From contig JAUUZN010000002.1 in the NCBI GenBank assembly GCA_030589945.1, forward strand, positions 1-60,166: a DNA stretch of 60,166 nt. Reading direction: 5' to 3'. Below the pieces are notes generated by a model that saw nothing but the letters and a program-made list of their open reading frames with translations, was not told the DNA's origin and did not search any database. The DNA comes from Gammaproteobacteria bacterium (GTDB taxonomy: Bacteria; Pseudomonadota; Gammaproteobacteria; Enterobacterales; GCA-2746155). Position 1 is the stretch's first letter. Each line of letters starts with the position of its first letter. This document shows, piece by piece, positions 17,448-57,704 of the stretch. The translations under genes were made by a program, and so were the position numbers.

Positions 17448-18104
17448 ATGAATTATAAGTTAATAGCGGTTCTGGTACTGATGCAATACACCATTGTTTC
17501 AGGGATTGTTCAGGCTGGAGATAAATTCCCAATTGCAGATATTGCAAGCAAGGTTAACCCGTTAAATCTTGGTTCTAAAATTCCCAACGTGGGTTTATGG
17601 ACGGGCTATGGAGACCCTGTACATCTTCGAAAAATAACCTATAAAAAACCTTCGGTTATTTATTTTTATCAAGGCGCCTGGATGCCCATTTGTTCTAAGC
17701 AGCTGAATGAACTTAGAGACATCGCTGAAAAGCTCGATGCGATTGGCTTCCAACTCATTGGAATTAGTCCCGATTCACCTCGCCGGTTAATAAAAACTAG
17801 GAAAAAGCAGAAGCTGAATTTTATGCTACTTTCTGATTACCATCTTGATGCTGCCAGAGGGTTTGGTATTGCCTATCGACTGACTAAAAAAGAAGAGCGT
17901 TTAGCGAGGAAAAAGTATGGTGCGGACTTACGCTACATTAAGGGAGAAGAGGGGTATAACTTACCTGTGCCAGGATTTTTCATAGTAGACACCCAAGGAA
18001 TAATACATTTTCAATACGTAAACCCTAACCTTAAACAACAGATGACCACCGACTTTTTGCTATCAGCAGCCCAAATGGTATCCACCTCTATCAAAACAGA
18101 TTAA
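17448..18104 (+). CDS. Exported AhpC/TSA peroxiredoxin-like protein with an altered redox motif
   Basis: Signal peptide, [19 protein letters not shown] and [10 protein letters not shown] motifs. ATG at 17448 follows GGAG. Confidence 0.8.
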
Positions 18105-19546: not shown

Positions 19547-19814
19547 TTGTATTCCAGTAGTCAGGTTCTGGGTTGTCTTTGAAAAGTTCGTCATCCTGTG
19601 GCAGGGGTTGTCCTGTATAGGCATGAAGAAATGCTTCACAGAGTAGTTCACTGTTTGTTGCGTGTCTAAGGTTGTTTACTTGTCGACGTGTTCTCTCGTC
19701 AGTCAATATTTTAAGTACCGTTAAAGGAATCGATACGGTTACCTTTTTAACTGAGCCACTTTTCTTGCCGTGTTCGACATAAGGGCTAATGTAATTGCCA
19801 TCCCATTGATTCAT
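19539..19814 (-). CDS. metJ: Methionine regulon repressor
   Basis: [24 protein letters not shown]...[27 protein letters not shown]. Confidence 0.98.
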
Positions 19815-28503: not shown

Positions 28504-29862
28504 TCAGGCTGTTTCTTTTCTTAAAAATGCTTTTATCATAACGATAATAAATAAAGTGCCACCAATAATAGAAATGGCTCCACCTGCGCCCATTAATCCC
28601 ATGCTAGCAATTTGTGGTAAGTGCTCCAACACATCTTCAGCACCAAATGTTTTACGCTGCACACCATAACCTCCAGACCAGACTAAGCCGATAATATGCA
28701 TTAGCTGTCCACCACCATAGATATAAGGTTGCCAACAGGCCATCTTTGACATCGGTCTAGAAAATCCTAGATATGGAAGAAGATGGTAAGCGAGTCCCAT
28801 GAATGCCAAGGTTACACCAACAATTGAACCATGATAATGGGCGGGCACTACCACATTCATTCCATCGATCATAAATCCGATAATTCCACCTGCCGCAAAT
28901 AATGTTATTGAGCTGAGTAGCGCTGCTTTAACGGGTAATTTATTAGCATGAAAAGTAGGAGACTTAATAATAGAAAACACCACAACAAATCCCAGAGGGA
29001 TGGAAGCTAATCCACCATACTTCATCAAATCAGTGAAGGCTGTTCTGTGCTCTAGTGAAACAACATCATATTGGAGATAAATGAAAGGAGTCACTACAAG
29101 AGGGAAGGCCGCTAACAAAAATAGCCATTGGGCAATTTTCGGCGAGAAGTCAATGCTGATTCCTGCAGCCTTGCCTATCCATAACCAGGCAACTAACAAT
29201 AACAATGTATGAGTATATTGCAGTATGTGACCGGAACCCCAAAATAAAACCTCGTAGAAAGCAGTACTTTCATAGGACGACGGTATCCCTACATAACTTG
29301 CAACCAACGAAATCAATGCCAATAGAGCAATCCATGCGCTGATATAGATGCCCGTATCTAACGCGTCAGAAGGACTAGGATTAGAAAAGTTAGGGGGGCT
29401 TGATGTTATTCTCAGTAAAATTTGTAATAGCATTCCCAAGCCAAAAATAGACAAGCCTGTGATGAATATTGGATGATCTAATATTGGGATATAATTATTC
29501 ATCAGCGGATTACCCACACCGATAAATGGAGCAATACTGATTGCTAGGGTTCCAGTTATCGCTAATCCAATGGCAATTTTATTGAGAACATTATTTTTAG
29601 AATCCGTGGTAAAACTCCACAAAACACCTGCAAAAGAAACAAACCATATCAATACTGAGAGATCCACATGAACAACCAAAGCCACATAAAAGAAGTTGCT
29701 AAAAGGAATCATTTCCTTTATCACGGGTGTACGTGATAGAACCAATACTATAGAAAATATTCCTGCCAAAACTAGTGAAACAACACTTAATTTTAACCAG
29801 GCTGATGCTATAGAATTTTCGGCATTGATTGATTTTGAAAATTGAAAATATTGACTTGTCAT
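28504..29862 (-). CDS. Degenerate heme-copper oxidase subunit I-like membrane protein
   Basis: About 12 TM helices. Keeps ALVVHVD (helix II His), WGSGHILQY and PAHYHG (helix X HxH), but has no helix VII His-His pair. Confidence 0.75.
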   Translation of the reverse strand: MTSQYFQFSKSINAENSIASAWLKLSVVSLVLAGIFSIVLVLSRTPVIKEMIPFSNFFYVALVVHVDLSVLIWFVSFAGVLWSFTTDSKNNVLNKIAIGLAITGTLAISIAPFIGVGNPLMNNYIPILDHPIFITGLSIFGLGMLLQILLRITSSPPNFSNPSPSDALDTGIYISAWIALLALISLVASYVGIPSSYESTAFYEVLFWGSGHILQYTHTLLLLVAWLWIGKAAGISIDFSPKIAQWLFLLAAFPLVVTPFIYLQYDVVSLEHRTAFTDLMKYGGLASIPLGFVVVFSIIKSPTFHANKLPVKAALLSSITLFAAGGIIGFMIDGMNVVVPAHYHGSIVGVTLAFMGLAYHLLPYLGFSRPMSKMACWQPYIYGGGQLMHIIGLVWSGGYGVQRKTFGAEDVLEHLPQIASMGLMGAGGAISIIGGTLFIIVMIKAFLRKETA

Positions 29863-29864
29863 TT

Positions 29865-30908
29865 TTATTGTTTAACTTCTCGGTTAATAAATATCATGAT
29901 AGAGAGCAATATCATTGCTCCGCCCTGATGCGCAACAGCAACAGGGACTGGCATGTTGAAAATTAATGTAGTGACACCCAGAGTTACTTGGATCACTAGC
30001 ATCGCTAAAAGGAAATGTGCTGCCTGACTGCTTTTTCTGGTAATCGCGAGACGTCTTAGTGCAAAACTAAAAACGGGGACTATCACCAGCAAAAGATAGG
30101 CTGTCATTCGATGGTTGAATTGGATCGTAGTTATGTTCTCAAACCAGTTTAACCAAAAGGGTACAAGGGTATACATGCCGTCAGGAATAAACTTTCCTTC
30201 CATCAGTGGAAACGTATTGTAGGCATAGCCGGCTTTAGTTCCAGCAACGAAGCCACCCGTGCTAATCATAAAAACAACCAAGCCTGTTAACGCCAAAGAG
30301 TAGCGATATAATGTTCGCCCTTGAGCAGTGTTAACAAGTTCACGGCCTTGTTGTAACAAACCAAAAGCAACCCATAAGATATAGCTAAATATCATCACAG
30401 CGGCAATTAAATGGGCCGTTAATCGATATTGACTAACCTGTGGGTCATTGACTAAACCGCTTTTAACCATGTACCAGCCGAGTACACCTTGTAGGCCGCC
30501 AAGGATAAACATGGTTATCATCTGCGGTAACATTTTGCGACGAATTCTACCGGCAAACCAGAAGAATAAGAATGGTATTAGAAATATCAATCCAATCAAT
30601 CGGCCCAATACGCGGTGAGAATATTCAAAATAAAAAATGCTTTTAAATTCATCCAAAGACATACCAATGTTTAACTTTTGATACTCTGGAAATTCTTGGT
30701 AATGTTTGAATGCTTGCATCCACTGGATTTCATTAAGCGGTGGTATTACACCCATAATGGGCTTCCAATCGACCATTGATAAACCGGAATGAGTGAGGCG
30801 GGTAGCTCCTCCTAAAATGATCATAAAAAAAATAACGGCAGCAACAATAAATAACCAAGTAGCCACCTGTTTGTCATGAGCGTTTTGTAATGATGTATCT
30901 ATACTCAT
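29865..30908 (-). CDS. ctaA: Heme A synthase, Cys-free COX15 type
   Basis: GGATRLTHSGLSM, FEYSHR..GR, RLTAHL, QFNHR and VAHQ motifs. Confidence 0.93.
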   Translation of the reverse strand: MSIDTSLQNAHDKQVATWLFIVAAVIFFMIILGGATRLTHSGLSMVDWKPIMGVIPPLNEIQWMQAFKHYQEFPEYQKLNIGMSLDEFKSIFYFEYSHRVLGRLIGLIFLIPFLFFWFAGRIRRKMLPQMITMFILGGLQGVLGWYMVKSGLVNDPQVSQYRLTAHLIAAVMIFSYILWVAFGLLQQGRELVNTAQGRTLYRYSLALTGLVVFMISTGGFVAGTKAGYAYNTFPLMEGKFIPDGMYTLVPFWLNWFENITTIQFNHRMTAYLLLVIVPVFSFALRRLAITRKSSQAAHFLLAMLVIQVTLGVTTLIFNMPVPVAVAHQGGAMILLSIMIFINREVKQ

Positions 30909-31918
30909 GAAAATGATTTTCCCGACATTTTTCTATTAAGAGATGTTAAAAACATTAATAACACGGCAGTCATGAAGTTATGAGAGAGCACCAAAAACAA
31001 CGGCAGTTGAACTAACAATGTGCTGATCCCTAATAAGAACTGAGCGACGACTAAAGAAAGCACCAACAAGCAGTCCTTGGCTAACCGACGATCGGAACTC
31101 CATTCGGATCGCATGAGAAATGTCACTATCGATATGAAATAGGCGAGAACAATTACACCTAAAAAATGATGTATGATTTGAATGAGCTTCATCTTGTCTT
31201 CAAGTATAACTTTGTCTTGGTTGTCCAATTGCAAAAAACCGACTGGATTGAAAGCCTCAATAATGTTTACACTCTCTATTTGCTTGGCACCACAATTAAA
31301 TAAACTTTCACAGCTAGAACCTGCAAAGTTAACACTGGTCCATCCCCCCCAGAATATTTGCAACAAAATAATAAACATACCAATACGAACGAAGGGAACA
31401 AGAGGTGATTCCATATGGATTTCTTTCGTTCCTGATATTTTTAGATAAAGATGTAAAAGCAACGCGACCAATACTAAACCCCCAACAAAATTACCCATTA
31501 AGAGAATGGGTAATGGCTGATTAGGATGAAACGGGCCTATGGCTGCTAAAAATACGGTCACTGATAAAATTGCCGTAGGAATGCGGTTACCGAGTATGTT
31601 TCGATACTTTTCACTCATCGTTAATAAAAAGAGGAATAAAATGATTAAGCCTAATGTACTGGTCACTATTCGATGAGCAATTCTTTCCATTCGATAAGGA
31701 GTGGCACGGGCTTCACTGGTTAGTACATTAACACCTTGAACACTTTTGTTATTTTGATATTGACCATAGCAGGAGGGCCATGGCTCACAACCAACGCCAG
31801 ATTCAGCTAGACGCACATAGCTACTGAGAACCACCGTCATTAAGGCGAATCCCAAAGCGATTATTATTAATGCAGGTAACCATCGGCTGACCTTAGTATT
31901 TGGTGTTTCGATATTCAA
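30905..31918 (-). CDS. Divergent second CtaA/COX15 family protein (Cys-pair type)
   Basis: YVRLAESGVGCEPWPSCYG, RIAHR, CESLFNC, IIHH and LSHN motifs. Confidence 0.78.
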   Translation of the reverse strand: MNIETPNTKVSRWLPALIIIALGFALMTVVLSSYVRLAESGVGCEPWPSCYGQYQNNKSVQGVNVLTSEARATPYRMERIAHRIVTSTLGLIILFLFLLTMSEKYRNILGNRIPTAILSVTVFLAAIGPFHPNQPLPILLMGNFVGGLVLVALLLHLYLKISGTKEIHMESPLVPFVRIGMFIILLQIFWGGWTSVNFAGSSCESLFNCGAKQIESVNIIEAFNPVGFLQLDNQDKVILEDKMKLIQIIHHFLGVIVLAYFISIVTFLMRSEWSSDRRLAKDCLLVLSLVVAQFLLGISTLLVQLPLFLVLSHNFMTAVLLMFLTSLNRKMSGKSFS

Positions 31919-31938: not shown

Positions 31939-32472
31939 TTATTTAAGAAGTAGCATTACTTCATGCCGAATTTTAGATATATCATTTGCTTTGAAACCTT
32001 GGTGTGCATACCGTAACACACCCTGCTTATCAATAAGGTATGAAGCAGGTAATACGTTAATCTGGTACAGTTTGTAAATATCGAGTTCAGCAGTATGCAC
32101 CACTGGATAATCTACTGGATATTTTACAAGAAAATCTCTGCCATTATTTGGATCATTGTCTAAATTAATAGCAAGAATTTCAAATTCATCGTTGCCAAGT
32201 TCTTTGCGCATTTTATCCAACAATGGCATGGATGTTAAACAGGGTTTGCACCAAGAAGCCCAAAAATCCAGATAGATAACTTTGCCGCGGTAATTTGTCA
32301 GTCTATCGTCAATGTTACCATCAGACATAAGTGATTGAAAAATAATTTCCGGTGCCATTTCACCAATTTTTAAAACCGGTGGCATTTTGCCAACAGGAGT
32401 TTCAACATCGCTGCAACCACTGATAAAAACAAGCCATAATATTAAAAAACAATTCAATAAATACTGTCGCAT
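31939..32472 (-). CDS. TlpA family disulfide reductase lipoprotein
   Basis: Lipobox ISGC and DFWASWCKPC motif. Confidence 0.92.
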   Translation of the reverse strand: MRQYLLNCFLILWLVFISGCSDVETPVGKMPPVLKIGEMAPEIIFQSLMSDGNIDDRLTNYRGKVIYLDFWASWCKPCLTSMPLLDKMRKELGNDEFEILAINLDNDPNNGRDFLVKYPVDYPVVHTAELDIYKLYQINVLPASYLIDKQGVLRYAHQGFKANDISKIRHEVMLLLK

Positions 32473-32825: not shown

Positions 32826-34901
32826 CTAAAGCTTGTTACTTGTTCCCCCTAAAATGATGAATTTTTTGGTATCCGGATCAAAGTCAATCACCAGTACACT
32901 TCTGGAAGCCAGATTAATTTCTCTGGTTTCCTGATAATTATAATCATCTAAATCTCTGTGATCCTTTAATTTTACAGTAATTTTATGCATCCCTGCTTTA
33001 ACGGTAAAGCGATGATATAATTTGGCCCTGCCATCATTATTCAAACCCGCCGGCATGACCACCTTGTGGTAAGACTCCACATCATTTATAAGTAATTGAA
33101 ACTCAATTGAGGAGCGTTCTCTAGGACATACTTTGGCGAGCCTCATATTAGCCGGTAAACTAAGCATTTCTTCATCAGAGCGAAAGCGACACTCACCAAT
33201 GATTTGACCCGTATGACGCAAACTTAGTTTAATGGTTGCTTCACCTTCTTCAATCTGTGTATAGGTTGGTGAATTAGAAAAGTAGCCAATAAATAATATT
33301 ATTGCCGCATAAAACAATGCCTGCCCAAAATAATTCTTACCTTTCTTTTGGAATCTGATATTACCTATATCTTCTGACACTTTTCCAGAATCTAAAAGCT
33401 GAGAAAAATTATTGACCTCCGATTTCAATGCTGGCAATTCCATTGCTCCAGCCCAACGGACTCTAACCTTATTATAATCTTTTGCAGCTGCCGTCCTTAA
33501 ATGCGGACTGCGTTCTCCTTTAAATCGTTCATCAATCCATTGATTTCCTAATCGGTAATAACAGTTTTCTAAGCAACAGCCGGTGACCATTACACCATCG
33601 GCATGATCTTTTCTTATCAAGTAGTCGACAAAAGAGGGGGGCAAAAAACCTATACAGGGCAGGCTAATTGGGATGGTGTTTTTGATGCCAATTTGCTCTA
33701 TGTCAGCACCTTTTTCGCAACCAAAGATAATGAGCCTGTCTTTACCCTTCAGTTGTCCAAGCTTGTTGATAATTTCGTGTTTAAATACATCAATAGAATA
33801 ATCCGGTATGCCGATACCACTCTTCAATTCATCAATGGTTTGAAAGGGTGTAGCAGATGGACAAGAACCCGTGCAAATTCCACAGGCTGTACATTTGTCA
33901 GGATTTACCACAGCGATACGTGGACTTTTATTATTAGGATGGGGTTCAAAACTAATTGCGTCGAATGGACAGTCGAGATCACACCAGCCACAACCATTAC
34001 AGCGATCTGGATTGATAACGGCTGCAGGCACTTTTTTGTGCTTCATTATTAACGGCAGGAAGCTTAAAAACATTGATATCCCTACCAGTAATACCCAAAC
34101 TGTCCCAGGTCCCCAATAATCAATCAAGGGATAAACATTAAGATAAAACCAATCAATTGGAATATTAACCGGTGTCTGACTTAAATCGGCGCGACCAGAA
34201 CTGATTGCAGGCTTTATTAGTGATAGCACAATGAACGCTATAATGGTTCCAATGGCCAAGCCTCTCGGAGGATTAGTTTTCGCTTTTGAGACACGGCTAA
34301 TATGGATAAACATAGCCAGCATCATAAATAGCGGAATACCAAAATGAAGAAATACCATCAATGAGAAGAAACGATCACTCACCGTATCGTTGCTTAAAAA
34401 GTTTCGAGCCATTGGATCGCCAAAAGTAGGCAACCAATCAAGAAATTCCATTGTGGCAACTGCAACATATTGTGCAAATTGATCCCATACTAGCCAATAG
34501 CCACCAATTGCTGCAGCAAACATAAACCATAGCAGTGGGATGCCTGTGAACCATGAAAACCAACGGGTACCGGTGAAGCGTCCCAGTGAGAATTCGCGCA
34601 CTAGATGCAGCGTTACTGTTAATGCTAATGCATCTGAGCAATAGCGGTGTAAGCTTCTTACAACTCCACCTAAATACCATTGTTCATTGGTTAAATACTG
34701 AAGCGAGTCATAGGCACCATTAATGCTGGTTTCAAAAAATATAAACAGATAAAGGCCGGTAACGGTTAAAATCCAAAAGAAATAAAATGATAAGGCGCCC
34801 AGTTGATAGAAGGGATTCCAATCGTCATCAAAAAATAAATTGAATGCTGCTTCCACACGATCAAATAAATAATGTAGAGACTTTTGTAAAACAGATAGCA
34901 T
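32826..34901 (-). CDS. Cytochrome b - 2x[4Fe-4S] - MvhD/FlpD-like - periplasmic domain fusion
   Basis: Cytochrome b motifs (RSLHRY, LHLVR, GYWLVWDQ, FLHF), CNGCGWCDLDCP, CTACGICTGSCP, then FGC...PCIG...GCCLENCYYRLGN, then one TM and a soluble domain. Confidence 0.88.
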   Translation of the reverse strand: MLSVLQKSLHYLFDRVEAAFNLFFDDDWNPFYQLGALSFYFFWILTVTGLYLFIFFETSINGAYDSLQYLTNEQWYLGGVVRSLHRYCSDALALTVTLHLVREFSLGRFTGTRWFSWFTGIPLLWFMFAAAIGGYWLVWDQFAQYVAVATMEFLDWLPTFGDPMARNFLSNDTVSDRFFSLMVFLHFGIPLFMMLAMFIHISRVSKAKTNPPRGLAIGTIIAFIVLSLIKPAISSGRADLSQTPVNIPIDWFYLNVYPLIDYWGPGTVWVLLVGISMFLSFLPLIMKHKKVPAAVINPDRCNGCGWCDLDCPFDAISFEPHPNNKSPRIAVVNPDKCTACGICTGSCPSATPFQTIDELKSGIGIPDYSIDVFKHEIINKLGQLKGKDRLIIFGCEKGADIEQIGIKNTIPISLPCIGFLPPSFVDYLIRKDHADGVMVTGCCLENCYYRLGNQWIDERFKGERSPHLRTAAAKDYNKVRVRWAGAMELPALKSEVNNFSQLLDSGKVSEDIGNIRFQKKGKNYFGQALFYAAIILFIGYFSNSPTYTQIEEGEATIKLSLRHTGQIIGECRFRSDEEMLSLPANMRLAKVCPRERSSIEFQLLINDVESYHKVVMPAGLNNDGRAKLYHRFTVKAGMHKITVKLKDHRDLDDYNYQETREINLASRSVLVIDFDPDTKKFIILGGTSNKL

Positions 34902-34994: not shown

Positions 34995-35915
34995 TTAATC
35001 TGTTTTATCGGTTACAGCTGAATCATTATTCTCGTCGTTGTGATTACCTGTTTTACTTAATTTCCACTCACGAACAAAAATTCTAACGAAGAATATACCC
35101 ATAACCAAGGCAACAAATATTCCAATAAAAATGGAATAGTTAAAATAATACTTATCTTGGGAAGGATCGTAAACAGTGCAGAATAGTTTTATCTTTGTCG
35201 AAATGGCAGAGAATAAAGAAGCACTCTTATTTTCACCAAAGACTAGCTCTTTTAGTGGTTCGACAAAATTGGGTGTTTGAGGTCTCATCCCATAAACTTG
35301 ACGGTAAACAACAGAATCTTTATCGAGTATGCTGGCTTGTATCATGTGATCAAAACCTTGGGGTGAGGCTGAAAAAATAAATCCCAAATCTCGTGCTAAG
35401 GCACTCATTGTTGCCGCATCTGTTGAAAGGAAAAACCAGTTTTTTGAACCTGAACTGTGCGACTTTGCAAACTGAGCCATTGCCTTGGGAGTGTCTATGT
35501 GAGTATCAAAACCAATAGTAATGACATTAAAACTATCCTCACCTAACACCTGCGTAGCTTTTTCAACCACCCGATTTAAATTTTCTGTAATGGTTGGACA
35601 AATATGATGACAACTAGTGTATATCATACTCACTATCAATGGTTTTCCACTGAAGGTTTTAGTGGTTAATATTGCACCATCCGATGAAGTAAAACGATAA
35701 TGACCTACCGATTGACCGATAGCAGCCTGACTGATTGCCAGTGCTTGCTCATTGCTATATTGGCTAATCTCTTCAGTTGCGGTATTTTTGTTTTTAATAT
35801 GGTCCTTGGCGGCTACATCTGATGTAGCAGCATTTGCTGTAGCACCGAAAGCCAAAAGGAATAAACAACTAACGGTGAATCGACGATTAAATCCCCGTTG
35901 AAAAAAATTAAACAT
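34995..35915 (-). CDS. SCO family copper chaperone
   Basis: YTSCHHICP (CxxxC), FDHM His, C-terminal TM helix. Confidence 0.9.
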   Translation of the reverse strand: MFNFFQRGFNRRFTVSCLFLLAFGATANAATSDVAAKDHIKNKNTATEEISQYSNEQALAISQAAIGQSVGHYRFTSSDGAILTTKTFSGKPLIVSMIYTSCHHICPTITENLNRVVEKATQVLGEDSFNVITIGFDTHIDTPKAMAQFAKSHSSGSKNWFFLSTDAATMSALARDLGFIFSASPQGFDHMIQASILDKDSVVYRQVYGMRPQTPNFVEPLKELVFGENKSASLFSAISTKIKLFCTVYDPSQDKYYFNYSIFIGIFVALVMGIFFVRIFVREWKLSKTGNHNDENNDSAVTDKTD

Positions 35916-35940: not shown

Positions 35941-35983
35941 CATTAGGCATTCCATTAGGCTCTCCATTAGGCTCTCCATTAGG
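35941..35983. repeat. 12-bp tandem repeat (~3.6 copies) spanning the ctaB stop
   Basis: CATTAGGCATTC CATTAGGCTCTC CATTAGGCTCTC CATTAGG. Confidence 0.85.
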
Positions 35984-36842
35984 TAAAGCCATTAAGTACT
36001 GAGCCGAGTAAAACCATTGTCAACTGTATTAATGATGCAAAAAAACAACTCATAGCACTCTTCTTATTGGTATTAATAACCAATTGTATACTTTTAATTA
36101 TAAAATAGGCGCCACCTGATAGGGCGCAGATTAGATAAACAACTCCCATTTCATAGAAAAAAGGCAAAATGGATACCGTCACCAGCATTAATGTGTGAAT
36201 GAGAATGACGATTGCCGCTTTTTCATCGCCTATCACTACTGGCAACATGGGCACCTTAGCAAGTGCATAATCTTTGTGAAGAGCAATGGCCAGACTCCAA
36301 AAATGTGGAGGTGTCCAAAGAAATAAAACCATGGCCAGTAATATTGAGGAACTATTTAAATCTGGTGATGCGGCAGCAGCTCCGGCCAATACTGCAAAAC
36401 TGCCAGATACACCGCCAATGATTATGTTGATACTGCTTCGACGTTTTAACCAGAGGGTATAAACGACTCCATAAAAGAAAGCGCCTAAGAATAAATAAAT
36501 CGCTACCATCGAATTAAAAACTATCCAGGCGGTAACCACTGAAGCGACAAGAATAGCTGCAATAATAAATAACCAAATAGAATGGTGTTTAATAACACCC
36601 GTTACAAAGGGTCTATTTTGCGTACGTGGCATTACCGAATCGAGATCTCTCTCAGCATATTGATTAAAAGCACCAGCGCTTGCTGAAGCCAAAACCACCA
36701 GCACCAACAACAGTGTGACTTCTGCTAGTGAAAGTTCTCTACCTGGTGTCACCGCATAGCCTGCAAGTGCAGTGACCGACATCATTATTCCGATCCTAAG
36801 TTTAAACAGATCGACCAATTGTCTGAGCATTAGAAACCTCAA
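35979..36842 (-). CDS. ctaB: Protoheme IX farnesyltransferase (heme O synthase)
   Basis: NQYAERDLD..M.RT..RP, YTLWLKRR and LWTPPHFWSLA motifs. Confidence 0.95.
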   Translation of the reverse strand: MRFLMLRQLVDLFKLRIGIMMSVTALAGYAVTPGRELSLAEVTLLLVLVVLASASAGAFNQYAERDLDSVMPRTQNRPFVTGVIKHHSIWLFIIAAILVASVVTAWIVFNSMVAIYLFLGAFFYGVVYTLWLKRRSSINIIIGGVSGSFAVLAGAAAASPDLNSSSILLAMVLFLWTPPHFWSLAIALHKDYALAKVPMLPVVIGDEKAAIVILIHTLMLVTVSILPFFYEMGVVYLICALSGGAYFIIKSIQLVINTNKKSAMSCFFASLIQLTMVLLGSVLNGFT

Positions 36843-36875: not shown

Positions 36876-36903
36876 TTCGAGATAGGCTAATGCCTACCTC
36901 GAA
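36876..36903 (-). terminator. Hairpin after oxidase subunit I
   Basis: Minus strand TTCGAGGTAGGC-ATTA-GCCTATCTCGAA followed by TTGTTT. Confidence 0.7.
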
Positions 36904-36930: not shown

Positions 36931-38637
36931 CTAACTGAGGCCCCATGTTTCTGACAGATACTTCCAGTTGATGAAGTAATAGGCGGCGAAAGTTGCTAAA
37001 AATACCATCGCTAAGAGGAATGTTCCCGGAATAGCGTTGTTGGTTGATTTATGTAGCGTAGCATACTGTTCATCAGTCACTGCCGGTACAATCATTTGCT
37101 GAGAGCACTTTTCATCATCAGCCAGTTTCTTACCAAAGAGTAATGAACCGACGATGAGTAAACAAAACATCGCTCCACCGATGACTGCCAACACTACACT
37201 TAAACCATTGAGTGACATCATCGCTAATGCTGATGATGCGAATTCATAAGGGAAGGTGGCATCTGTGAATGAAGTATCCCAATGTCTGCGTGGTACACCC
37301 ATGGTTCCAGCGCCCATCATGAACATTGAAACACCAACCATTCCCAGACTGAAGATATAAGGTTGCATGGAACAGAGTTTCTTAAAGATTAGTTCTCGGC
37401 GGAATATTATCGGTACCAGCCAGTAGGTAAGTCCCATAAATGTCAAGGTTGTACCCAATACAACGGTAGCGTGAAAGTGACCGGGAACATAGAGGGTGTT
37501 GTGGATTAGCAAGTTCAATTGCTCAGTACCCATCATGACTCCGGTAATACCACCGATGAATCCAAAACCAAATATGGATATCATGATTGAAGAGAAGGTT
37601 GGGTTGCCCCAAGGCGCTTTTCGTAACCACTCAAATAATCCATTATTAAAACCACGTGCTCTTTGTGCTGCTTCCATGGCACCTGGAACTGTCACACCAT
37701 GAACCATACTTGCCATAACCGCAAGATACATAGCGTAACTGGTATTGAACATCTTCCATTCAGCGCTAACGCCCGGATCAACCAATAAATGGTGAGCACT
37801 GGCGATTTGAAGAACAGCAATATAGAGTAAAAATGCAAAACGACTGACTTTTTCAGAGAGTGGTTTGGCACCAAACATAACGCTGGCAACCAAATACCAA
37901 ATGGTAATGTGCGTGGCGACGTTAATTTGTTGAGAAGAGTGTCCGAAAGCCCACCAGATTAAACGATAAACACCAGCATCAATATGGCTCACTAAGCCCA
38001 ATTGCCAGAAAAATGTGGGTAATAGGATTAACGCGCCAGATGCGATAGTAAAGACTGCGATAATACAGGCGGTTAATGCACCAAAGGTTACCAGTGGTAA
38101 CGATCCCTCATAGGTTTTCTCTTTCTTTGCGATAACTAATGTACCGAGAAAGACGAAGCAACCTAACAGGGCGCCTACGGCAAAGAGTATCAATCCCAAA
38201 TAAAAGGACCAATGAGCAGGCATCGGTGCATAGGAGGTCATCATTACAGCTGAATTAAGTTTCCACACTGCGTAGTTGTTCATTAAAGCACCAACGACCA
38301 TGAGGCCAAATCCAGCCCATGCTACTTTTGGGGCAGCCAACCGAACGCGAAGTACGGCGGAGGATGCAAAGTAGAGTACTGCAATTTCGAAAAAGATGAT
38401 CCAAAATATTAATACATTGATGCCATGACCCGTTAGAGCGGTATAAAAGTCTTGTGCTCCTAATAAATGCACTTCGGGCCAGCGTGTTAAACCAACACCT
38501 AGCCCCATAAATCCACCTACTAATAAGAAAACAACAGCAGCTACGGCGTTAGCTTTTATCAGCGACAATGCTGGTTTGTGTAGTAAAAGCCCAGTATCAG
38601 GGCATGTTCGGAAATTATTGTCTGACATTAGAGTCAC
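36931..38637 (-). CDS. Heme-copper oxidoreductase subunit I, B-family related, probable eNOR nitric oxide reductase
   Basis: All six His ligands present (TGHG, FGHSSQQ, SAHH, GHFH). The His+4 position is Gln, not Tyr or Glu. Confidence 0.85.
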   Translation of the reverse strand: MTLMSDNNFRTCPDTGLLLHKPALSLIKANAVAAVVFLLVGGFMGLGVGLTRWPEVHLLGAQDFYTALTGHGINVLIFWIIFFEIAVLYFASSAVLRVRLAAPKVAWAGFGLMVVGALMNNYAVWKLNSAVMMTSYAPMPAHWSFYLGLILFAVGALLGCFVFLGTLVIAKKEKTYEGSLPLVTFGALTACIIAVFTIASGALILLPTFFWQLGLVSHIDAGVYRLIWWAFGHSSQQINVATHITIWYLVASVMFGAKPLSEKVSRFAFLLYIAVLQIASAHHLLVDPGVSAEWKMFNTSYAMYLAVMASMVHGVTVPGAMEAAQRARGFNNGLFEWLRKAPWGNPTFSSIMISIFGFGFIGGITGVMMGTEQLNLLIHNTLYVPGHFHATVVLGTTLTFMGLTYWLVPIIFRRELIFKKLCSMQPYIFSLGMVGVSMFMMGAGTMGVPRRHWDTSFTDATFPYEFASSALAMMSLNGLSVVLAVIGGAMFCLLIVGSLLFGKKLADDEKCSQQMIVPAVTDEQYATLHKSTNNAIPGTFLLAMVFLATFAAYYFINWKYLSETWGLS

Positions 38638-38646
38638 CCTTTATAA

Positions 38647-39189
38647 TTATTTAACGACGTGGATCTTACCCACCATATTGTGATGACCTATACCGCAGAA
38701 TTCATTACAAATAATTGAAAATTCTCCGGATTTGTTAGGCGTAATGGTAAAGACATGTTCATATCCAGGTAACACTTGAATATTGATGTTTTCAGGTTGT
38801 AGAGAAAACCCATGATTCCAGTCCATAGAAGTCAAATGTAATCGATAACTTTGACCTTCTTTAAGTTCAAGAATTGGCCACCAGTCCCAGAGTCTCGCTA
38901 CAAGATAAACGTCGGAACCAATAGGTGGAGCAACCACTGGAAATTTACGGTCACCTTCTTCACGTATGGTAAATTCATCAACCATGGCTTGGGCTTTCTT
39001 TTGAAACAATTGAGGAGTGGTTCGATAGGTTTCAGCCGAGAGGTTTTGGTTTCCATACACGTGCCACAAAGGCATCATTAGTGTAAGAATTAAACCCCAG
39101 ACTATCACTATTCCAATCCAGATAAGTTCAACCCTTTCGATGGGCTCTTTCCACCATAGTTTTTGAGCCGGTGGTGATAGACATGTCAT
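38647..39189 (-). CDS. CuA-containing subunit II
   Basis: One TM helix; HGFS...CNEFCGIGHHNM CuA motif. Confidence 0.95.
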   Translation of the reverse strand: MTCLSPPAQKLWWKEPIERVELIWIGIVIVWGLILTLMMPLWHVYGNQNLSAETYRTTPQLFQKKAQAMVDEFTIREEGDRKFPVVAPPIGSDVYLVARLWDWWPILELKEGQSYRLHLTSMDWNHGFSLQPENINIQVLPGYEHVFTITPNKSGEFSIICNEFCGIGHHNMVGKIHVVK

Positions 39190-39241
39190 AAAATATCTCC
39201 GAAAATCTAAATTTGATTTATTGTTAGTACGATTCGGCCAA

Positions 39242-39388
39242 TTATTGAGCCAAAGGGATCGATACTAACTCCATAATTCCCCAGATCAGATAAGTCACTG
39301 TGGGTATTAATACACCTATAAATAATAATAAAAAGCTGTTATCCATAAGCTTTTGCATTAATGGAATATTTTCTTCATCATCTGCCAT
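39242..39388 (-). CDS. 48-aa single-TM small subunit, absent from the ORF track
   Basis: MADDEENIPLMQKLMDNSFLLLFIGVLIPTVTYLIWGIMELVSIPLAQ*, GGAG RBS, first gene after the FNR box. Confidence 0.8.
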   Translation of the reverse strand: MADDEENIPLMQKLMDNSFLLLFIGVLIPTVTYLIWGIMELVSIPLAQ

Positions 39389-39545
39389 GTTCACTGCTCC
39401 CATTGAGGGGTTAAAAATTAATTTTAAAAATGAAAATCCAAGACAAATTTATCAAGGAGGAACATCTCCAAACCTTACGTAAGATAGAATACTATGCATG
39501 GTCAATTGTAAGAAAGTGTAATTCGATGAAGAACTTACAAAACTA

Positions 39546-39559
39546 TTGACTTAAATCAA
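39546..39559 (-). promoter_or_regulatory. FNR/DNR box of the eNOR-like operon
   Basis: TTGAC-TTAA-ATCAA, with a -10-like TACACT at 39520-39515 on the minus strand. Confidence 0.82.
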
Positions 39560-40352: not shown

Positions 40353-40429
40353 TGGCGCGCCCGGAGCGATTCGAACGCCCGACCAACTGGTTCGAAGCCA
40401 GTTACTCTATCCAGCTGAGCTACGGGCGC
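40353..40429 (-). tRNA. tRNA-Arg(UCG)
   Basis: GCGCCCGTAGCTCAGCTGGATAGAGTA-ACTGG-CTTCGAA-CCAGT-TGGTCGGGCGTTCGAATCGCTCCGGGCGCGCCA. 77 nt, encoded CCA, anticodon TCG. Confidence 0.95.
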
Positions 40430-42601: not shown

Positions 42602-45600
42602 ATGAATAATAATATCATTAAACAAAAGTTCTCATATACTTTCATCATCCTCAGCTATTTATCAATGATGAATATTTGCGCGTCGGAAGAACAGGTAATA
42701 AATCACAAGATTAATGCAAGTTATGAACCTGCAACTCACCTTGTGTCGGTGACAGACACCATTTCTCTCGCTGAGGGTATAGAAAATAATTCAATTGAAT
42801 TTAAACTTCATAGTGATTTGAATGTTACCTCTAATACTAAGGGTGTTTCTGTTGAATTGGTCAATACAAACTCTTCGGCAATTGATAAGGGCATGGATCA
42901 AGAAAAGTTTGATGTGCCACTTAGCACCTATAAAATAACGTTTAGTAATCTATTCAAAGGAACTAAAGGCCAATTTACTTTAAAATATGAAGGTGTCATT
43001 CACCATATTATCAAACAAAAAGGTGAAGAATATTCGCGAGGATTCAGTCAATCTCCGGGTATTATTGAAGAGCGGGGCGCCTACTTGTCAGGTTCAACCT
43101 ATTGGGTACCCAGCTTCGGTGATGAATATATAACCTATGAACTGACAACCTCATCGCCTGAAGGATGGAGAGTGGTGAGCCAGGGTAAGCGCATGCTTTC
43201 TAAAGATGAAGGTGGTCGACATCTTGATACTTGGTTGGTTGACACACCCACAGAGGAAGTCTATTTAATTGGCGCTAAATTTAGTGAATACTCCTTTGAT
43301 GTTGGCGCAGTTAAGGCGATGGCATTTTTACGAAGCTCTGATGAAGCTCTCGCTAATAAATATTTGGAAACTACAGCTCAGTATATGGAGATGTATCGAA
43401 ATTTAGTGGGTCCCTATCCATATTCTAAGTTTGCCCTCGTAGAGAACTTTTGGGAAACAGGCTACGGCATGCCATCTTTCACATTGTTGGGTGAACAAAT
43501 TATTCGATTCCCTTTTATATTACATTCATCCTATCCACATGAATTGCTGCACAACTGGTGGGGCAATAGTGTCTATCTTAATTTCGATCAAGGTAACTGG
43601 TGTGAAGGGTTAACAGCCTATATGGCAGATCACCTGATAGCAGAACAACGGGGCATTGCTGGAGAGTACAGACGGTCTACCTTGCAGGGCTATACTGATT
43701 ATGTTGATGAGAAAACAGATTTTCCTCTAAGTAAATTCATTTCTCGCTTCAGTCCAGCAAGTTCAGCAGTTGGTTATGGTAAATCAGCCATGATGTGGGA
43801 CATGTTAAGAGACAAGGTCGGTGATGAACATTTTATTAAGTCGTTCCAGAAATTTTATCGAGAGAATAAATATCAACGTGCAGGCTATTCAGATATTCAA
43901 GCTGCATTTGAGTCCGTATCTGGTGAAGAATTAACTCCATTTTTTGAACAATGGGTACAAAGAAAAGGGGCTCCAGAGCTGGAAATTGGTCAAGTTAATA
44001 TTACCGGAAACAAAGGGGCCTATAGTATTGAATTTAGCTTAAATCAGGTTCAGTCAGAAAAAGCATTTGTACTCGACATACCTCTTGCTATTTATAGTAA
44101 GGATGGCGTGACTCAACATAAGGTTCTAATGGATTCAAAGCAACAAAGTTATTCTATAGAGCTGACATCGAAACCTGAAAAAATTCATGTTGATCCCCAG
44201 TTCAACCTATTTAGAAAACTACATTTTTCTGAGATCCCTCCGTCATTGTCTAAGATATTTGGTGCTGAAAAAGTGACCATTGTTCTTCCTTCTAAAGCCA
44301 GTGCGTTAGAAGCGGAGCGATATAATGAATTGTCAAAAATATGGACTCGGCAGAGCGATAAATTCGAAGTTGTTTATGATAATAAAATCAGCTCACTACC
44401 GGCTGACAGAGCGGTATGGCTGTTTGGTTGGAATAACACGTTTCGTTCGGTTGTTGAAAAAGCTCTAGAATCATTAAGCGGCGAAATTGGTGATAACAAA
44501 GTCACACTCGGTAAAACCGAACTATCTGCAGATGACAACAGTTTTGTCATTGGTGTACGCCATCCAAAAAATTCAAATTTAGTGGTTGTATGGGTTACCG
44601 CTCATGATCAAAAGGCTGTTGCCGGTCTTGCTAGAAAGCTTCCACATTATGGCAAGTATAGTTACTTAGCATTTACCGGTACTGAGCCTTCAAATGTCTC
44701 AAAGGGACAGTGGCCTACAGTTAATTCACCCTTAGTTTACAACCTGTCAAAAGATGCTGATTTTAGTAACATCAAATTGCCTAAACGTCCTGCTCTTGCC
44801 AAATTAGCTCCAGTATTCTCAGCTGAGCGTATGCAAAAAACGGTTGACTACTTAGCAAGTGATGAACTAAAAGGGCGAGGGTTAGGGACCGATGAGCTTG
44901 ATACGGCTGCTGATTACATTGCAGAGCAGTTCAAAAAAGCAGGTCTAGTGACGGCCGGTGACAACGATACTTATTTTCAAGATTTTGTAGCAACAGCAGG
45001 TGAAAAAAACAAAAAGGTCTTTGCGAAGAATGTTATTGGAGTGATTCCTGGTAGCAATAAAGAATGGGCTGAAGAGTCGGTCATTGTAAGTGCTCATTAT
45101 GACCACCTTGGATTAGGCTGGCCGAGTCCTGCAAAGGGTAATAAAGGAAAAATACACAATGGGGCTGATGATAATGCCAGTGGTGTTGCTGTATTAATAG
45201 AATTAGCGAATGTACTAAAGAGTATGAAGCCAAAGCGTAATGTCATCTTTGTTGCCTTTAGTGGTGAAGAAGCTGGATTACTTGGTGCTAAATATTACGT
45301 TAAAAACATGCAGAAATACCCTGTCAATAAAGCCATGGGCATCATCAACATGGATACCGTGGGTAGTCTAGGTGATAAAAAAACTATTAATCCTCAATGG
45401 CTCATCAGCTAGGGAATGGAAGTTTATTTTAATGGGGACTTCATTCGTTACTGGCGTTGAAACTGAAATGGTTTCTCAGGAAATTACCTCCAGTGATCAT
45501 GCGGTCTTTATTGATGCAGGCGTCCCAGGCATTCATTTGTTTGCCGGCTCTTCTAGCAACTACCATACGCCATCTGATACAGCAGACACAATAGATAGTT

Positions 45601-45995
45601 CAGGATTGGTGAAGGTTGCTACCGTGGCACGCGAAGTGGTTAACTATCTTGCTGAACGTCCTGAGCCCATGTCCTTTGCTGGAGCAAAATCGAAAAAAGC
45701 GCCATCTGGCAACAAACAAAAACCAAAGGGACGGAAAGTGAGCACCGGAGTTATGCCCGACTTTGCCTTTTCGGGTGAGGGTGTACGGGTTGCAAGTGTT
45801 AGCGATGGTTCAGCTGCTGCAAAGGCCGGACTTATCAAAAATGACATCATTACGGTCTTAGCCGGTGTAAAAGTGACCGACCTTCGTAGTTACTCTACAG
45901 AATTAAAAAAACACGACATTGGTGAAACTATCGATGTGTCTTACCTTCGTGGTAAAGAAACCCATACAACAAAAATAACACTAGCGGCTCGATAG
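42602..45995 (+). pseudogene. M1 aminopeptidase - M28 peptidase - PDZ protein split by a +1 frameshift (ORFs 42602-45412 and 45372-45995)
   Basis: HELLH...WCEG (M1), SAHYDH, GADDNASG, GEEAG and NMD in frame 1; SDH, YHTPSD and a PDZ domain in frame 2. A7 run at 45377-45383. Confidence 0.8.
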
Positions 45996-47124: not shown

Positions 47125-48150
47125 ATGTTAACTAAAACGGCAACTTCTGCAATTCTTCTGGCAATAGTTCTTATTACAGGCTGTTCGACTCATGGAATTA
47201 AGCAGAACAGTAATGCATCATTACCCGCTCTCAACACCCTGTACCAATCGATTGTGATGGAGTCTAAAACAAGGCAGAGAGTTTCAGTAACAACACTTGC
47301 TGAACAACTTAAAGATACCGATGTTATTTTTATGGGCGAATTCCACTCGCACCAGGGGGGACATAAATTACAACTGGATTTACTTGAGGCTCTGTATAAA
47401 CAAAACCCAAAAATCATTCTATCAATGGAGCAATTCACTCGTGATGCTCAACCAATATTAGACGGGTATCTTGAAGGCAAATATGGTGAAGCAACCTTGA
47501 TTGAAGAAGGCAACGCCTGGCCACATTATAAGGGTTCATATCGAGCAATTGTAGAGTTTGCAAGAGAGCACGAACTACCCGTTGTCGCTGCAAATGCACC
47601 GGCTATGTTTGTCCGATGTGTGGGCAAAAAGGGCGTTGAAATTCTTGAAACTATCCCTGATGAAAAAAAGCCTTGGTCAGCTAGAAAACTAGATTTAGAT
47701 AATGAACAGTATAAGGCTAAATTCATGTCATTCTTGAGTGGTTCTGGCACTAGACATGGTCAAACAGAAGAGGTAGCAAAGAAGCGAATGATGAATACGT
47801 TTGCTGCTCAATTATTACGTGATACAACAATGGCTGAGTCTATAGATGATGCAATGCAAGAGAACCCTGGGTATCAGGTTATTCATCTTAATGGTTCATT
47901 CCACAGTGACGGTCACTTGGGTACAGCTGCTGTTATAGAGACCATGCGTCCCTCGCTAGTAACATCTGTGTTAAGTCCGGTAACGGCTCAAGATGCAGCC
48001 AGTCCAGCTGCGACTGAGGAGCAATATAGCCAAGGCGACTATATTTATTTAATTAAAGAAATGCCAGAACGCTATGTAGATAAAGAAAAGTTAAATGCTT
48101 CAATTCGCAAGTTAATTGGTGAACGAATGAAAAAGAAGTGCGAGCTCTAA
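47125..48150 (+). CDS. ChaN family lipoprotein
   Basis: Lipobox ITGC; GEFHSH, LSMEQF, AANAP, RDTTMAESI and NGSFHS motifs. Confidence 0.88.
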   Translation: MLTKTATSAILLAIVLITGCSTHGIKQNSNASLPALNTLYQSIVMESKTRQRVSVTTLAEQLKDTDVIFMGEFHSHQGGHKLQLDLLEALYKQNPKIILSMEQFTRDAQPILDGYLEGKYGEATLIEEGNAWPHYKGSYRAIVEFAREHELPVVAANAPAMFVRCVGKKGVEILETIPDEKKPWSARKLDLDNEQYKAKFMSFLSGSGTRHGQTEEVAKKRMMNTFAAQLLRDTTMAESIDDAMQENPGYQVIHLNGSFHSDGHLGTAAVIETMRPSLVTSVLSPVTAQDAASPAATEEQYSQGDYIYLIKEMPERYVDKEKLNASIRKLIGERMKKKCEL

Positions 48151-53109: not shown

Positions 53110-53123
53110 TTGATCTAAATCAA
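53110..53123 (+). promoter_or_regulatory. FNR/DNR box of the heme-type TonB receptor
   Basis: Perfect TTGAT-CTAA-ATCAA, with -10 TACTAT at 53146-53151 (class II spacing). Confidence 0.88.
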
Positions 53124-55403: not shown

Positions 55404-55460
55404 TTGATATAGGTCAATATATTGCTTTAAAAGTAGGTCTAAAATCTTGATTAAGATAAA
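55404..55460 (+). promoter_or_regulatory. Two FNR/DNR-like boxes and a -10 element upstream of nirS
   Basis: TTGAT-ATAG-GTCAA (55404-55417), -10 TAAAAT (55440-55445), TTGAT-TAAG-ATAAA (55447-55460). Confidence 0.78.

Positions 55461-55544: not shown

Positions 55545-57704
<2,160 letters not shown>

What the first reader, a model, noticed from the sequence alone, without database searches (positions are those of the whole stretch)
36931..39559. The 'cytochrome c oxidase' is probably an eNOR-type nitric oxide reductase
Seen: subunit I has all six His ligands, but helix VI reads WWAFGHSSQQ (nt 37927-37941). Gln occupies the His+4 position of the cross-linked Tyr needed by A/B-family O2 reductases, and it is not the Glu of cNOR/qNOR. 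A CuA subunit II and an FNR/DNR box are present, nirS lies about 16 kb away, and no norBC is in the window. Established, from memory: B-family-derived NO reductases with CuA include eNOR, in which this Tyr is replaced by Gln. Inference: this organism reduces NO to N2O with an enzyme that norB surveys and automated annotation would miss. With its eight or so accessory genes this is the strongest candidate for a poorly described system in the window.
Basis: partly seen in the sequence, partly recalled or inferred. Interest (0 to 1): 0.88.

Follow-up and report, generated by a model that had tools for sequence, protein, structure and literature searches.

The report
eNOR-type nitric oxide reductase operon
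The gene annotated as a cytochrome c oxidase belongs to the already published eNOR family of nitric oxide reductases, so this marine bacterium probably turns nitrite into the greenhouse gas N2O with an enzyme that routine annotation misnames.

Summary
Subunit I (36931-38637, minus strand) has all six heme/metal histidines. It reads GHSSQQ where Thermus ba3 oxidase reads GHPIVY, so the cross-link Tyr237 is a Gln. Subunit II has a complete CuA site. An FNR/DNR-type box lies upstream. A cd1 nirS lies 16 kb away.

Gln at this site is the published diagnostic of eNOR (PMC8756737, Table A4). In a careful tree the protein sits in a clade of 29 Gln-bearing proteins (support 100/99). That clade includes Natronomonas pharaonis, Chloroflexi, Thermomicrobium and a Thermus denitrification-plasmid gene. 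It is separate from Tyr-bearing relatives.

The genome has four heme-copper homologues. None is cNOR or qNOR, and I found no nosZ, narG or napA.

The family is known and common, so this is a new member of a known kind. NO-reductase activity is inferred. The characterised Rhodothermus marinus enzyme could not be fetched for the tree.

A conserved accessory set is the less-described part. It comprises a small subunit, SCO1, a cytochrome b-FeS-FlpD protein, a membrane-anchored beta-sandwich and a heme-copper paralogue lacking two metal histidines.

The parts
39546..39559 (.). FNR/DNR/NnrR-type box TTGACTTAAATCAA, about 160-170 nt upstream of the small ORF
   Evidence: One mismatch to TTGAT-N4-ATCAA. 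A box with at most one mismatch lies within 300 bp upstream of the small ORF in 45 of 74 orthologous loci. The background rate is 0.034 per 300 bp.
39242..39388 (-). 48-aa single-helix membrane protein, probable small third subunit (placed like ba3 subunit IIa)
   Evidence: Read and translated. tblastn finds it in 75 of 80 loci directly upstream of subunit II. Similar small ORFs sit in the same place in Thermus, Defluviimonas and Thermomicrobium records. The likeness to ba3 IIa is by position and size only, and is recalled.
38647..39189 (-). Subunit II, membrane-anchored cupredoxin with CuA site
   Evidence: Weak matches to PF00116, TIGR02866 CoxB and the NosZ CuA domain. The H-x34-CxExCx3Hx2M pattern is present in the window and in 78 of 80 loci.
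36931..38637 (-). Subunit I, eNOR-type heme-copper catalytic subunit (GHSSQQ)
36876..36903 (-). Terminator-like hairpin (12-bp stem) just after subunit I
   Evidence: This is a consensus match only: the region had 13 such sites against 10.8 in shuffles.
35979..36842 (-). CtaB/CyoE heme o synthase
   Evidence: TIGR01473 at 268.5 bits, above its cut-off. Found in 57 of 80 loci after subunit I.
34995..35915 (-). SCO1/SenC-family copper chaperone
   Evidence: PF02630 at 52.6 bits. Found in 71 of 80 loci.
32826..34901 (-). Fusion protein: cytochrome b N-terminal domain, two 4Fe-4S motifs, FlpD/MvhD-like domain, a further membrane helix and a C-terminal beta-sandwich
   Evidence: Pfam domains and sequence. 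The cytochrome b-FeS-FlpD part is in 56 of 80 loci. The C-terminal module is in 61 of 80 loci and is mostly a separate ORF. Its invariant residues are H45, C53, C74 and R76. The AF2 model has pLDDT 94.
31939..32472 (-). TlpA/ResA-type periplasmic thioredoxin
   Evidence: Found in only 8 of 80 loci.
30905..31918 (-). Divergent CtaA/COX15-like protein
   Evidence: PF02628 at 124 bits.
29865..30908 (-). CtaA heme a synthase
   Evidence: PF02628 at 367 bits. NF045570 at 309 bits, below its cut-off.
28504..29862 (-). 452-aa heme-copper-oxidase-like paralogue that lacks the helix VII His-His pair
   Evidence: PF00115 at 49.9 bits. It keeps the helix II His, the helix VI GH and the helix X HxH, but has no HH. 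Orthologues occur in 49 of 80 loci, with conserved H65, H212, Q215, F216, H342 and H344.
55575..57704 (+). cd1 nitrite reductase NirS with two N-terminal cytochrome c domains (709 aa); probable source of the NO
   Evidence: A one-mismatch FNR-type box lies at 55404-55417. Orthologues at 63-72% identity lie next to the eNOR genes in 9 of 80 loci.

Best explanation
Genes 39388-36931 (minus strand) encode a three-subunit eNOR-type nitric oxide reductase: a small membrane subunit, a CuA subunit II and a catalytic subunit I.

Inferred mechanism:
- Periplasmic electron carriers reduce CuA.
- Electrons pass to a low-spin heme (ligands H71 and H389), then to the binuclear site. That site is a high-spin heme on H387 plus a metal on H233, H282 and H283.
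- The cross-linked Tyr needed for four-electron O2 reduction is a Gln (Q237). The site therefore does the two-electron reaction 2NO + 2e- + 2H+ -> N2O + H2O.
- Protons probably arrive from the cytoplasm through a ba3-like K-type channel (Y248, S261, S310, H313, T316), so turnover may be electrogenic.
- CtaB and CtaA in the cluster supply heme o and heme a. SCO1 and TlpA serve CuA assembly.
- An FNR/DNR-type box places the operon under low-oxygen or NO control.

Together with two cd1 NirS-type genes and no NosZ, the organism would be a partial, probably micro-oxic denitrifier ending at N2O.

Shown: sequence features, clade, synteny and genome content. Inferred: activity, the identity of the active-site metal, the heme type, proton uptake and regulation.
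For: - Motif: Gln at the Tyr237 position in the alignment to solved ba3. This is the published eNOR diagnostic (PMC8756737, passages and Table A4).
- Clade: a careful IQ-TREE of 42 rows gives one clade for the 29 Gln rows (UFBoot 100 / SH-aLRT 99). One Y/Q change on the tree suffices. The quick tree of 55 rows agrees: 31 rows, support 100.
- Named members: Natronomonas pharaonis DSM 2160 (P0357, GHGSQQINL), Anaerolineales and Caldilineaceae proteins, Thermomicrobium roseum, and a Thermus thermophilus NAR1 plasmid gene. The Thermus gene lies beside an annotated nitrite reductase, a multicopper oxidase and an Rrf2 regulator.
- Biochemistry of the family: R. marinus eNOR reduces NO and not O2, carries heme As, and many eNOR operons hold CtaA (PMC11214002, section 6).
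- Proton channel: S310 aligns with ba3 S309, which the paper names as the conserved channel serine of B1, eNOR and bNOR. It is 31/31 in the clade.
- Genome content: four PF00115 matches, none cNOR or qNOR. No nosZ, narG or napA above cut-off. Two cd1 genes, one followed by a NapC/NirT cytochrome.
- Co-occurrence: of 80 sampled relatives, only one same-genus genome has the gene. That genome also has both cd1 genes. Of four other genomes of the family, G001 and G003 gave no match, and G004 and G006 gave only weak partial ones.
- Regulation: FNR-type boxes in 45 of 74 orthologous upstream regions, where about 2.5 would be expected. The genome has three Crp/Fnr-type regulators above cut-off.
Against: - No activity data exist for this protein or for any close (over 60% identity) relative that I could find.
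- The one biochemically characterised eNOR (R. marinus) is not in my trees, because no tool gave me its sequence. Membership rests on the motif plus lineages that papers name.
- Two tyrosines on helix VIII (Y301, Y304) are conserved 31/31 in the Gln clade only. By my recalled mapping they lie near the metal ligands, and I could not measure distances. PMC11214002 states that models show no migrated tyrosine.
- An FNR box does not separate a NO reductase from a low-oxygen oxidase. The cbb3 operon in the same window has a perfect one at 6485.
- The genome is 92% complete, so a missing norB or nosZ is not excluded.
- I defined the Gln group by the motif and then counted it on a tree whose alignment still held those columns (2 of 572).
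Confidence: 0.85

Rival explanations
1. It is a specialised low-oxygen terminal oxidase of the B-family lineage. It would reduce O2 without the helix VI tyrosine, using another residue such as Y301 or Y304 as the fourth electron donor.
For: - The nearest solved structures are ba3 oxidases (E about 1e-48).
- The nearest non-Gln relatives keep the tyrosine (GHxxQY).
- Clade-specific tyrosines sit on helix VIII.
- The FNR box and the CtaA/CtaB/SCO1 genes would suit an oxidase equally well.
Against: - The family's characterised member did not reduce O2 with a range of donors (PMC11214002, section 6).
- The same paper reports no migrated tyrosine in its models.
- The gene travels with nirS, both within this genus and in 9 of 80 loci.
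- The genome already has A-type and cbb3 oxidases.
Confidence: 0.05
2. It reduces NO, but only as a detoxifying sink for NO made by neighbours or by its own NirS. It would not conserve energy and would not be a respiratory step.
For: - The pathway in this genome is partial: no respiratory nitrate reductase and no NosZ were found.
- The reported turnover of R. marinus eNOR is low, 0.68 NO per second at 25 C.
- Papers on Zetaproteobacteria discuss detoxification as one reading (PMC8114936, passages).
Against: - The ba3 channel serine and other polar channel positions are conserved.
- Two NirS-type genes, one with a NirT partner, point to real electron flow to nitrite.
- The two roles are not exclusive.
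Confidence: 0.08
3. The enzyme acts on another small molecule (for example N2O, nitrite, peroxide or an unknown substrate), and NO reduction is a side activity.
For: - Heme-copper active sites are plastic. PMC11214002 proposes an N2O reductase and an NO dismutase among related new families.
- PMC8756737 leaves open 'NO or alternative substrates'.
Against: - NO reduction was measured for a family member.
- Context and co-occurrence with nirS fit NO.
Confidence: 0.02

Closest known systems
eNOR family of heme-copper NO reductases (Hemp & Gennis 2008, recalled; Murali et al. 2024, PMC11214002; Schwartz et al. 2022, PMC8756737)
   Same: - Gln at the cross-link Tyr site.
- B-family-like subunit I with six His ligands.
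- CuA subunit II encoded upstream.
- K-type channel serine.
- CtaA and CtaB in the operon.
- Same clade as Natronomonas, Chloroflexi and Thermus members.
   Different: - It is a marine gammaproteobacterial branch; the best named relative is a Spongiibacteraceae MAG at 83% identity.
- It is 41-46% identical to the archaeal, Thermus and Thermomicrobium proteins.
- The low-spin heme has His/His ligation, not the His/Lys variant the paper mentions for some eNORs.
- The cluster carries extra conserved genes (cytochrome b-FeS-FlpD, beta-sandwich protein, HH-less paralogue). These are not mentioned in the main texts I read.
B-family oxygen reductase, Thermus thermophilus cytochrome ba3 (PDB 1EHK, 1XME and others)
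   Same: - Best solved match (E about 1e-48 over residues 27-485).
- Same six His ligands.
- CuA subunit II.
- Small extra subunit gene upstream.
- Y248, S261 and S309-equivalent channel positions.
   Different: - Tyr237 is Gln.
- V236 becomes Q, W239 becomes N and T312 becomes H.
- A new NTSY..Y motif appears on helix VIII.
GHxxQY heme-copper proteins (P0132, P0135, P0137, P0168); unnamed here, the nearest Tyr-bearing relatives
   Same: They share Q236, N239, E84, Y272 and H313 with the Gln clade. Together with it they form a group set apart from canonical B-family rows (support 100).
   Different: They keep the tyrosine and lack N298, Y301 and Y304. They are presumably oxygen reductases.
cNOR/qNOR (NorBC, NorZ)
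   Same: Same superfamily and, by inference, the same net reaction.
   Different: - Glu rather than Gln at the H+4 site (Table A4).
- C-family ancestry.
- A cytochrome c subunit, or a fused domain, instead of CuA.
- No conserved inward proton channel (PMC11214002).

Membership tests
eNOR | Heme-copper subunit I with the six conserved His ligands | tested here: met
   PF00115 at 223 bits. H71, H233, H282, H283, H387 and H389 are aligned.
eNOR | Gln in place of the cross-linked Tyr on helix VI (the diagnostic in PMC8756737 Table A4) | tested here: met
   Q237 aligns with ba3 Y237. The same holds in 80 of 80 orthologous loci.
eNOR | Groups with proteins of lineages reported as eNOR hosts, apart from oxygen reductases | tested here: met
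   The Gln clade has support 100/99 and includes Natronomonas pharaonis, Chloroflexi, Thermomicrobium and Thermus rows. That these particular proteins are the ones the papers call eNOR is inferred from organism name plus motif.
eNOR | Groups with the biochemically characterised R. marinus DSM 4252 enzyme | not tested
   No tool returned that sequence. The genome-contig scan kept only the 80 nearest relatives, and the third protein search listed no protein named Rhodothermus.
eNOR | CuA-binding cupredoxin subunit II | tested here: met
   H-x34-CNEFCGIGHHNM. Weak CoxB and NosZ CuA-domain matches.
eNOR | One conserved K-type proton channel like that of the B family (S309 in ba3 numbering) | tested here: met
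   S310 aligns with S309 and is 31/31 in the clade. Y248 and S261 are kept, and T312 is H313. The channel residues other than S309 are recalled from memory, not read in a paper.
eNOR | Heme a-type (As) cofactors; CtaA homologue often in the operon | tested here: met
   The genes are present: CtaB, CtaA and a second CtaA-like gene. The cofactor itself cannot be tested with these tools.
eNOR | Reduces NO to N2O and does not reduce O2 | not testable with these tools
   Needs enzyme assays.
B-family oxygen reductase | Cross-linked His-Tyr cofactor (Tyr at H+4 on helix VI) | tested here: not met
   Gln at that site. All 11 canonical B-family rows and all 4 GHxxQY rows have Tyr.
cNOR/qNOR/nNOR | Glu at the H+4 site as fourth FeB ligand | tested here: not met
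   Gln, not Glu (Table A4).
sNOR/bNOR | Asn at the active-site position (Table A4 gives N for sNOR; the paper says bNOR shares that site) | tested here: not met
   Gln at the site.
gNOR | One active-site His replaced by Asp; subunit II without CuA ligands | tested here: not met
   All three metal His ligands and the full CuA pattern are present.

The most novel reading that the evidence does not exclude
In Pseudomonadota the eNOR genes travel with a conserved accessory set that the main texts I read do not mention. The set comprises:
- a cytochrome b-2[4Fe-4S]-FlpD membrane protein (56 of 80 loci);
- a membrane-anchored beta-sandwich protein with invariant His and two Cys (61 of 80 loci; fused to the former in this window);
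- a second heme-copper-like protein that keeps the heme histidines but has lost the His-His pair of the metal site (49 of 80 loci).

The boldest reading not excluded is that these form a dedicated machine for eNOR. One version is a transmembrane reductase and metal chaperone that loads CuA and FeB. The other is a quinol-linked electron input, with the HH-less paralogue as heme carrier or scaffold. Either would amount to a new assembly or electron-entry system for a heme-copper enzyme.
Probability: 0.3. Interest if true: 0.55.

Novelty: new member of a known kind. Interest (0 to 1): 0.33.

Why it matters
The gene is named 'cytochrome c oxidase subunit I' or 'cbb3-type' wherever a name is given among the 120 relatives listed. 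No NCBIfam model reaches its cut-off on it. Surveys based on norB, and automatic annotation, would therefore score this genome as nirS-positive and NOR-negative.

Read correctly, the organism is a likely N2O producer with no N2O reductase, in a marine gammaproteobacterial lineage where the trait is patchy (2 of 81 sampled genomes). This matters for N2O budgets and for the aerobic-denitrification question raised by the eNOR papers.

It does not change what is known about the family. The conserved accessory genes are the part that could repay experiments.

Tried and rejected
- **R. marinus anchor.** I looked for the R. marinus eNOR sequence to anchor the tree and did not get it. The genome-contig scan returned only the 80 nearest of 587 relatives, nearly all labelled Pseudomonadota (two carry Bacteroidota and Patescibacteria labels). 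Protein searches from P0126 and P0130 listed haloarchaeal and Chloroflexi/Gemmatimonadota proteins but none named Rhodothermus.
- **CcoG idea.** I tested whether the cytochrome b-FeS fusion is related to the cupric reductase CcoG. BLASTP against the window's CcoG found only an FeS-motif match (E 0.13). Pfam found nothing in the C-terminal 183 aa even at E 10. The idea survives only as a likeness of architecture.
- **Fold of the C-terminal module.** The AF2 model is confident (pLDDT 94.4). Foldseek against the PDB gave no match at E 0.001 or better. VIA-align wide gave a best Z of 8.4 to unrelated Ig-like sandwich domains, within the range the tool calls common. No functional lead came from this.
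- **ESM Atlas.** It only returned automatically named clusters of the same two accessory families.
- **Expression.** No RNA holder was listed. One DNA run holds the stretch and may be its source. Two RNA runs of the same study hold next to none of its words. I did not lay reads.
- **Promoter and terminator scan.** Neither count exceeded the shuffles.
- **Misread ORF.** ORF 18101-19651 is pyruvate kinase. The real nirS is at 55575-57704.
- **Supplements.** The supplements of PMC11214002 (Datasets S1, S5-S8, SI Appendix) were not seen. They may already list this clade, its conserved residues and its operon contexts.
Full report
**What is there.** The minus strand between 39559 and 28504 carries one co-oriented cluster. 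In order it holds:
- a one-mismatch FNR/DNR-type box (39546-39559);
- a 48-aa single-helix ORF (39388-39242);
- a cupredoxin subunit II (39189-38647);
- a heme-copper subunit I (38637-36931);
- heme o synthase CtaB;
- an SCO1/SenC protein;
- a 691-aa fusion of cytochrome b, two 4Fe-4S motifs, an FlpD/MvhD-like domain, a further membrane helix and a beta-rich C-terminal domain;
- a TlpA/ResA thioredoxin;
- a divergent CtaA-like protein;
- CtaA;
- a 452-aa heme-copper-like protein.

A tRNA-Arg gene (40353-40429) flanks the cluster.

**Check of the observation.** Subunit I matches PF00115 at 223 bits but reaches no NCBIfam cut-off. Its best solved relatives are Thermus ba3 subunit I chains (E about 1e-48). 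The printed alignment puts query GHSSQQ against GHPIVY, so Q237 stands where ba3 has the cross-linked Tyr237. All six His ligands are present. Subunit II has H-x34-CNEFCGIGHHNM. The nirS they mention is the 709-aa gene at 55575-57704.

**Is the Gln more than a local oddity?**
- The whole-library search returned 1,287 proteins at E 0.001 or better.
- Among the 25 long representatives (440 aa or more) three patterns appear:
  - GHxxQQ(I/V)N in this protein and its closest representatives;
  - GHxxQY(V/I)N in four more distant ones;
  - GHPxVYFW in canonical B-family rows.
- A scan of species genomes found 587 relatives. The 80 kept all read GH(S/P)(S/A)QQ.
- A quick tree of 55 rows gave a 31-row Gln clade (SH-aLRT 100) with no Gln outside it.
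- For a careful tree I left out 16 rows: six of an odd HxxHY/GQ set, the genome's own A-type, ccoN and 452-aa proteins, and seven redundant or long rows. I added three named plasmid genes.
- That 42-row tree gave the 29 Gln rows as one clade (UFBoot 100 / SH-aLRT 99). The four GHxxQY rows are beside it (88/86) and the nine B rows are apart (100/100).
- I defined the group by the motif, and the motif columns stayed in the alignment (2 of 572). This is a small circularity.

**Link to the published family.**
- PMC8756737 (passages and Table A4 read) uses exactly this Gln to define eNOR. It tabulates Y, E, E, N and Q for oxygen reductases, cNOR, qNOR, sNOR and eNOR. It reports eNOR in Natronomonas, other Halobacteria, Chloroflexi and Alpha- to Deltaproteobacteria, often mislabelled as cytochrome c oxidase.
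- PMC11214002 (abstract and sections 6, 7 and 9 read) shows that the R. marinus enzyme reduces NO and not O2, carries heme As, and that many operons hold CtaA. It calls the family extremely common, with 547 GTDB genomes.
- My Gln clade holds a Natronomonas pharaonis DSM 2160 protein, Anaerolineales and Caldilineaceae proteins and Thermomicrobium roseum.
- It also holds a Thermus thermophilus NAR1 plasmid gene. That gene lies next to an annotated nitrite reductase, a multicopper oxidase and an Rrf2 regulator.
- I could not obtain the R. marinus sequence itself, so that membership row is untested.

**Genome context.**
- The assembly (3.27 Mb, 92% complete) has four PF00115 matches: an A-type oxidase, ccoN of a full ccoNOP-ccoG-fixH set in this window, the eNOR subunit and the 452-aa paralogue. 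No cNOR or qNOR was found.
- No nosZ, narG or napA reaches its cut-off.
- There are two cd1 genes: the 709-aa one here, and a 541-aa one on another contig followed by a NapC/NirT-type cytochrome.
- Of 80 sampled relatives in the order, only one same-genus genome has the eNOR gene, and it also has both cd1 genes.
- Of four other genomes of the family, G001 and G003 gave no PF02239 match. G004 gave a sub-threshold match (20.6 bits) and G006 a partial one (26.7 bits).
- These genomes are kin and few, so this is a hint of linked gain, not a test.

**Regulation.** A TTGAT-N4-ATCAA box with at most one mismatch lies within 300 bp upstream of the small ORF in 45 of 74 loci that had at least 150 bp of upstream sequence. 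Twenty of these are perfect. The rate across the same loci is 0.034 per 300 bp. The genome has three Crp/Fnr-type regulators above cut-off. The box fits low-oxygen or NO control. It does not by itself distinguish a NO reductase from an oxidase, since ccoN has a perfect box at 6485.

**Residues.**
- Q236, N239, E84, Y272 and H313 are shared by the Gln clade and its GHxxQY neighbours.
- Q237, N298, T299, Y301, Y304, C12 and W53 are specific to the Gln clade (31/31 or nearly).
- S310 aligns with ba3 S309, the channel serine named in PMC11214002.
- By my recollection of A- and B-family structures, helix VIII positions near 302 touch a metal-ligand histidine. The NTSY..Y motif may therefore be part of the remodelled site. 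This is inference.
- The two tyrosines are the only candidates for a 'compensating' Tyr. The paper states that none was found in models, and the family's tested enzyme does not reduce O2.

**Accessory genes.** Counts below are lower bounds, because many contigs end inside the cluster.

| Gene | Loci with it (of 80) |
|---|---|
| small ORF | 75 |
| subunit II | 78 |
| SCO1 | 71 |
| CtaB | 57 |
| cytochrome b-FeS-FlpD protein | 56 |
| C-terminal beta-sandwich module (usually its own ORF) | 61 |
| 452-aa paralogue | 49 |
| nirS of the 709-aa type, at 63-72% identity | 9 |

- The paralogue family keeps H65, H212, H342 and H344 and a GVQRK motif, but has no helix VII His-His. Most members have Phe where this copy has Tyr216.
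- The beta-sandwich module has invariant H45, C53, C74 and R76. It folds confidently but resembles only generic Ig-like domains.
- These three proteins are absent from the Thermus and Thermomicrobium loci.
- A Defluviimonas plasmid has CtaB, SCO and a cytochrome b protein after a 59% identical subunit I.
- Their role is unknown. Assembly of CuA and FeB, or electron input, are my guesses.

**Verdict.** The gene is a new member of a known, widespread family in a marine gammaproteobacterium; the nearest named relative is a Spongiibacteraceae MAG at 83% identity. Function as a NO reductase is a well-grounded inference. The accessory set is the more open question.

Noticed in passing
window 55575-57704: The NirS here is 709 aa with two separate cytochrome c domains (residues 47-133 and 205-274) before the d1 domain. 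PMC8756737 describes a three-domain C1-C2-NirS as limited to Chloroflexi. I did not test whether this first domain is homologous to their C1.
   Followed up: partly
window 28504-29862 and 49 of 80 related loci: A heme-copper-like family that keeps the heme His ligands and the helix VI His but lacks the helix VII His-His pair. It is conserved next to eNOR genes in Pseudomonadota.
   Followed up: partly
proteins P0185, P0191, P0203, P0257; P0239, P0247: Distant relatives with unusual active-site strings. One set reads F-H-x-x-H-Y on helix VI, with Y-H instead of H-H on helix VII. Another set has Gln in place of the helix VI metal His (GQxxxY).
   Followed up: no
proteins P0132, P0135, P0137, P0168: A GHxxQY(V/I)N group that keeps the tyrosine. 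It is the nearest neighbour of the Gln clade and may mark the oxidase lineage from which eNOR arose.
   Followed up: partly
window 53110-53123 and 53197-55389: A perfect FNR-type box lies upstream of a TonB-dependent heme/hemoglobin receptor gene, just before nirS. A ChaN-type heme-binding protein gene is at 47125-48150. This may link heme uptake with low-oxygen control.
   Followed up: no
window 42602-45412 and 45372-45995: The Peptidase_M28 profile is split across two overlapping ORFs: profile positions 1-104 at the end of the first and 141-192 at the start of the second. This looks like a frameshift or an assembly error in an M1/M28/PDZ peptidase gene.
   Followed up: no
window 40353-40429 and genomes G001-G080: A tRNA-Arg gene flanks the cluster, and only 2 of 81 sampled genomes of the order carry the eNOR gene. 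The distribution is patchy and compatible with horizontal gain. GC content is not distinct.
   Followed up: partly
L094 (Thermus thermophilus NAR1 plasmid 4) 11307-13668: A Gln-type subunit I with subunit II and a small ORF lies in a denitrification island, beside an annotated nitrite reductase, a multicopper oxidase, a cytochrome P460 family gene and an Rrf2 regulator.
   Followed up: partly
G000 contig C194 (L006 1072-4175): A second cd1 gene (541 aa) is followed by a NapC/NirT-family multiheme cytochrome that continues beyond 458 aa at the locus end.
   Followed up: no
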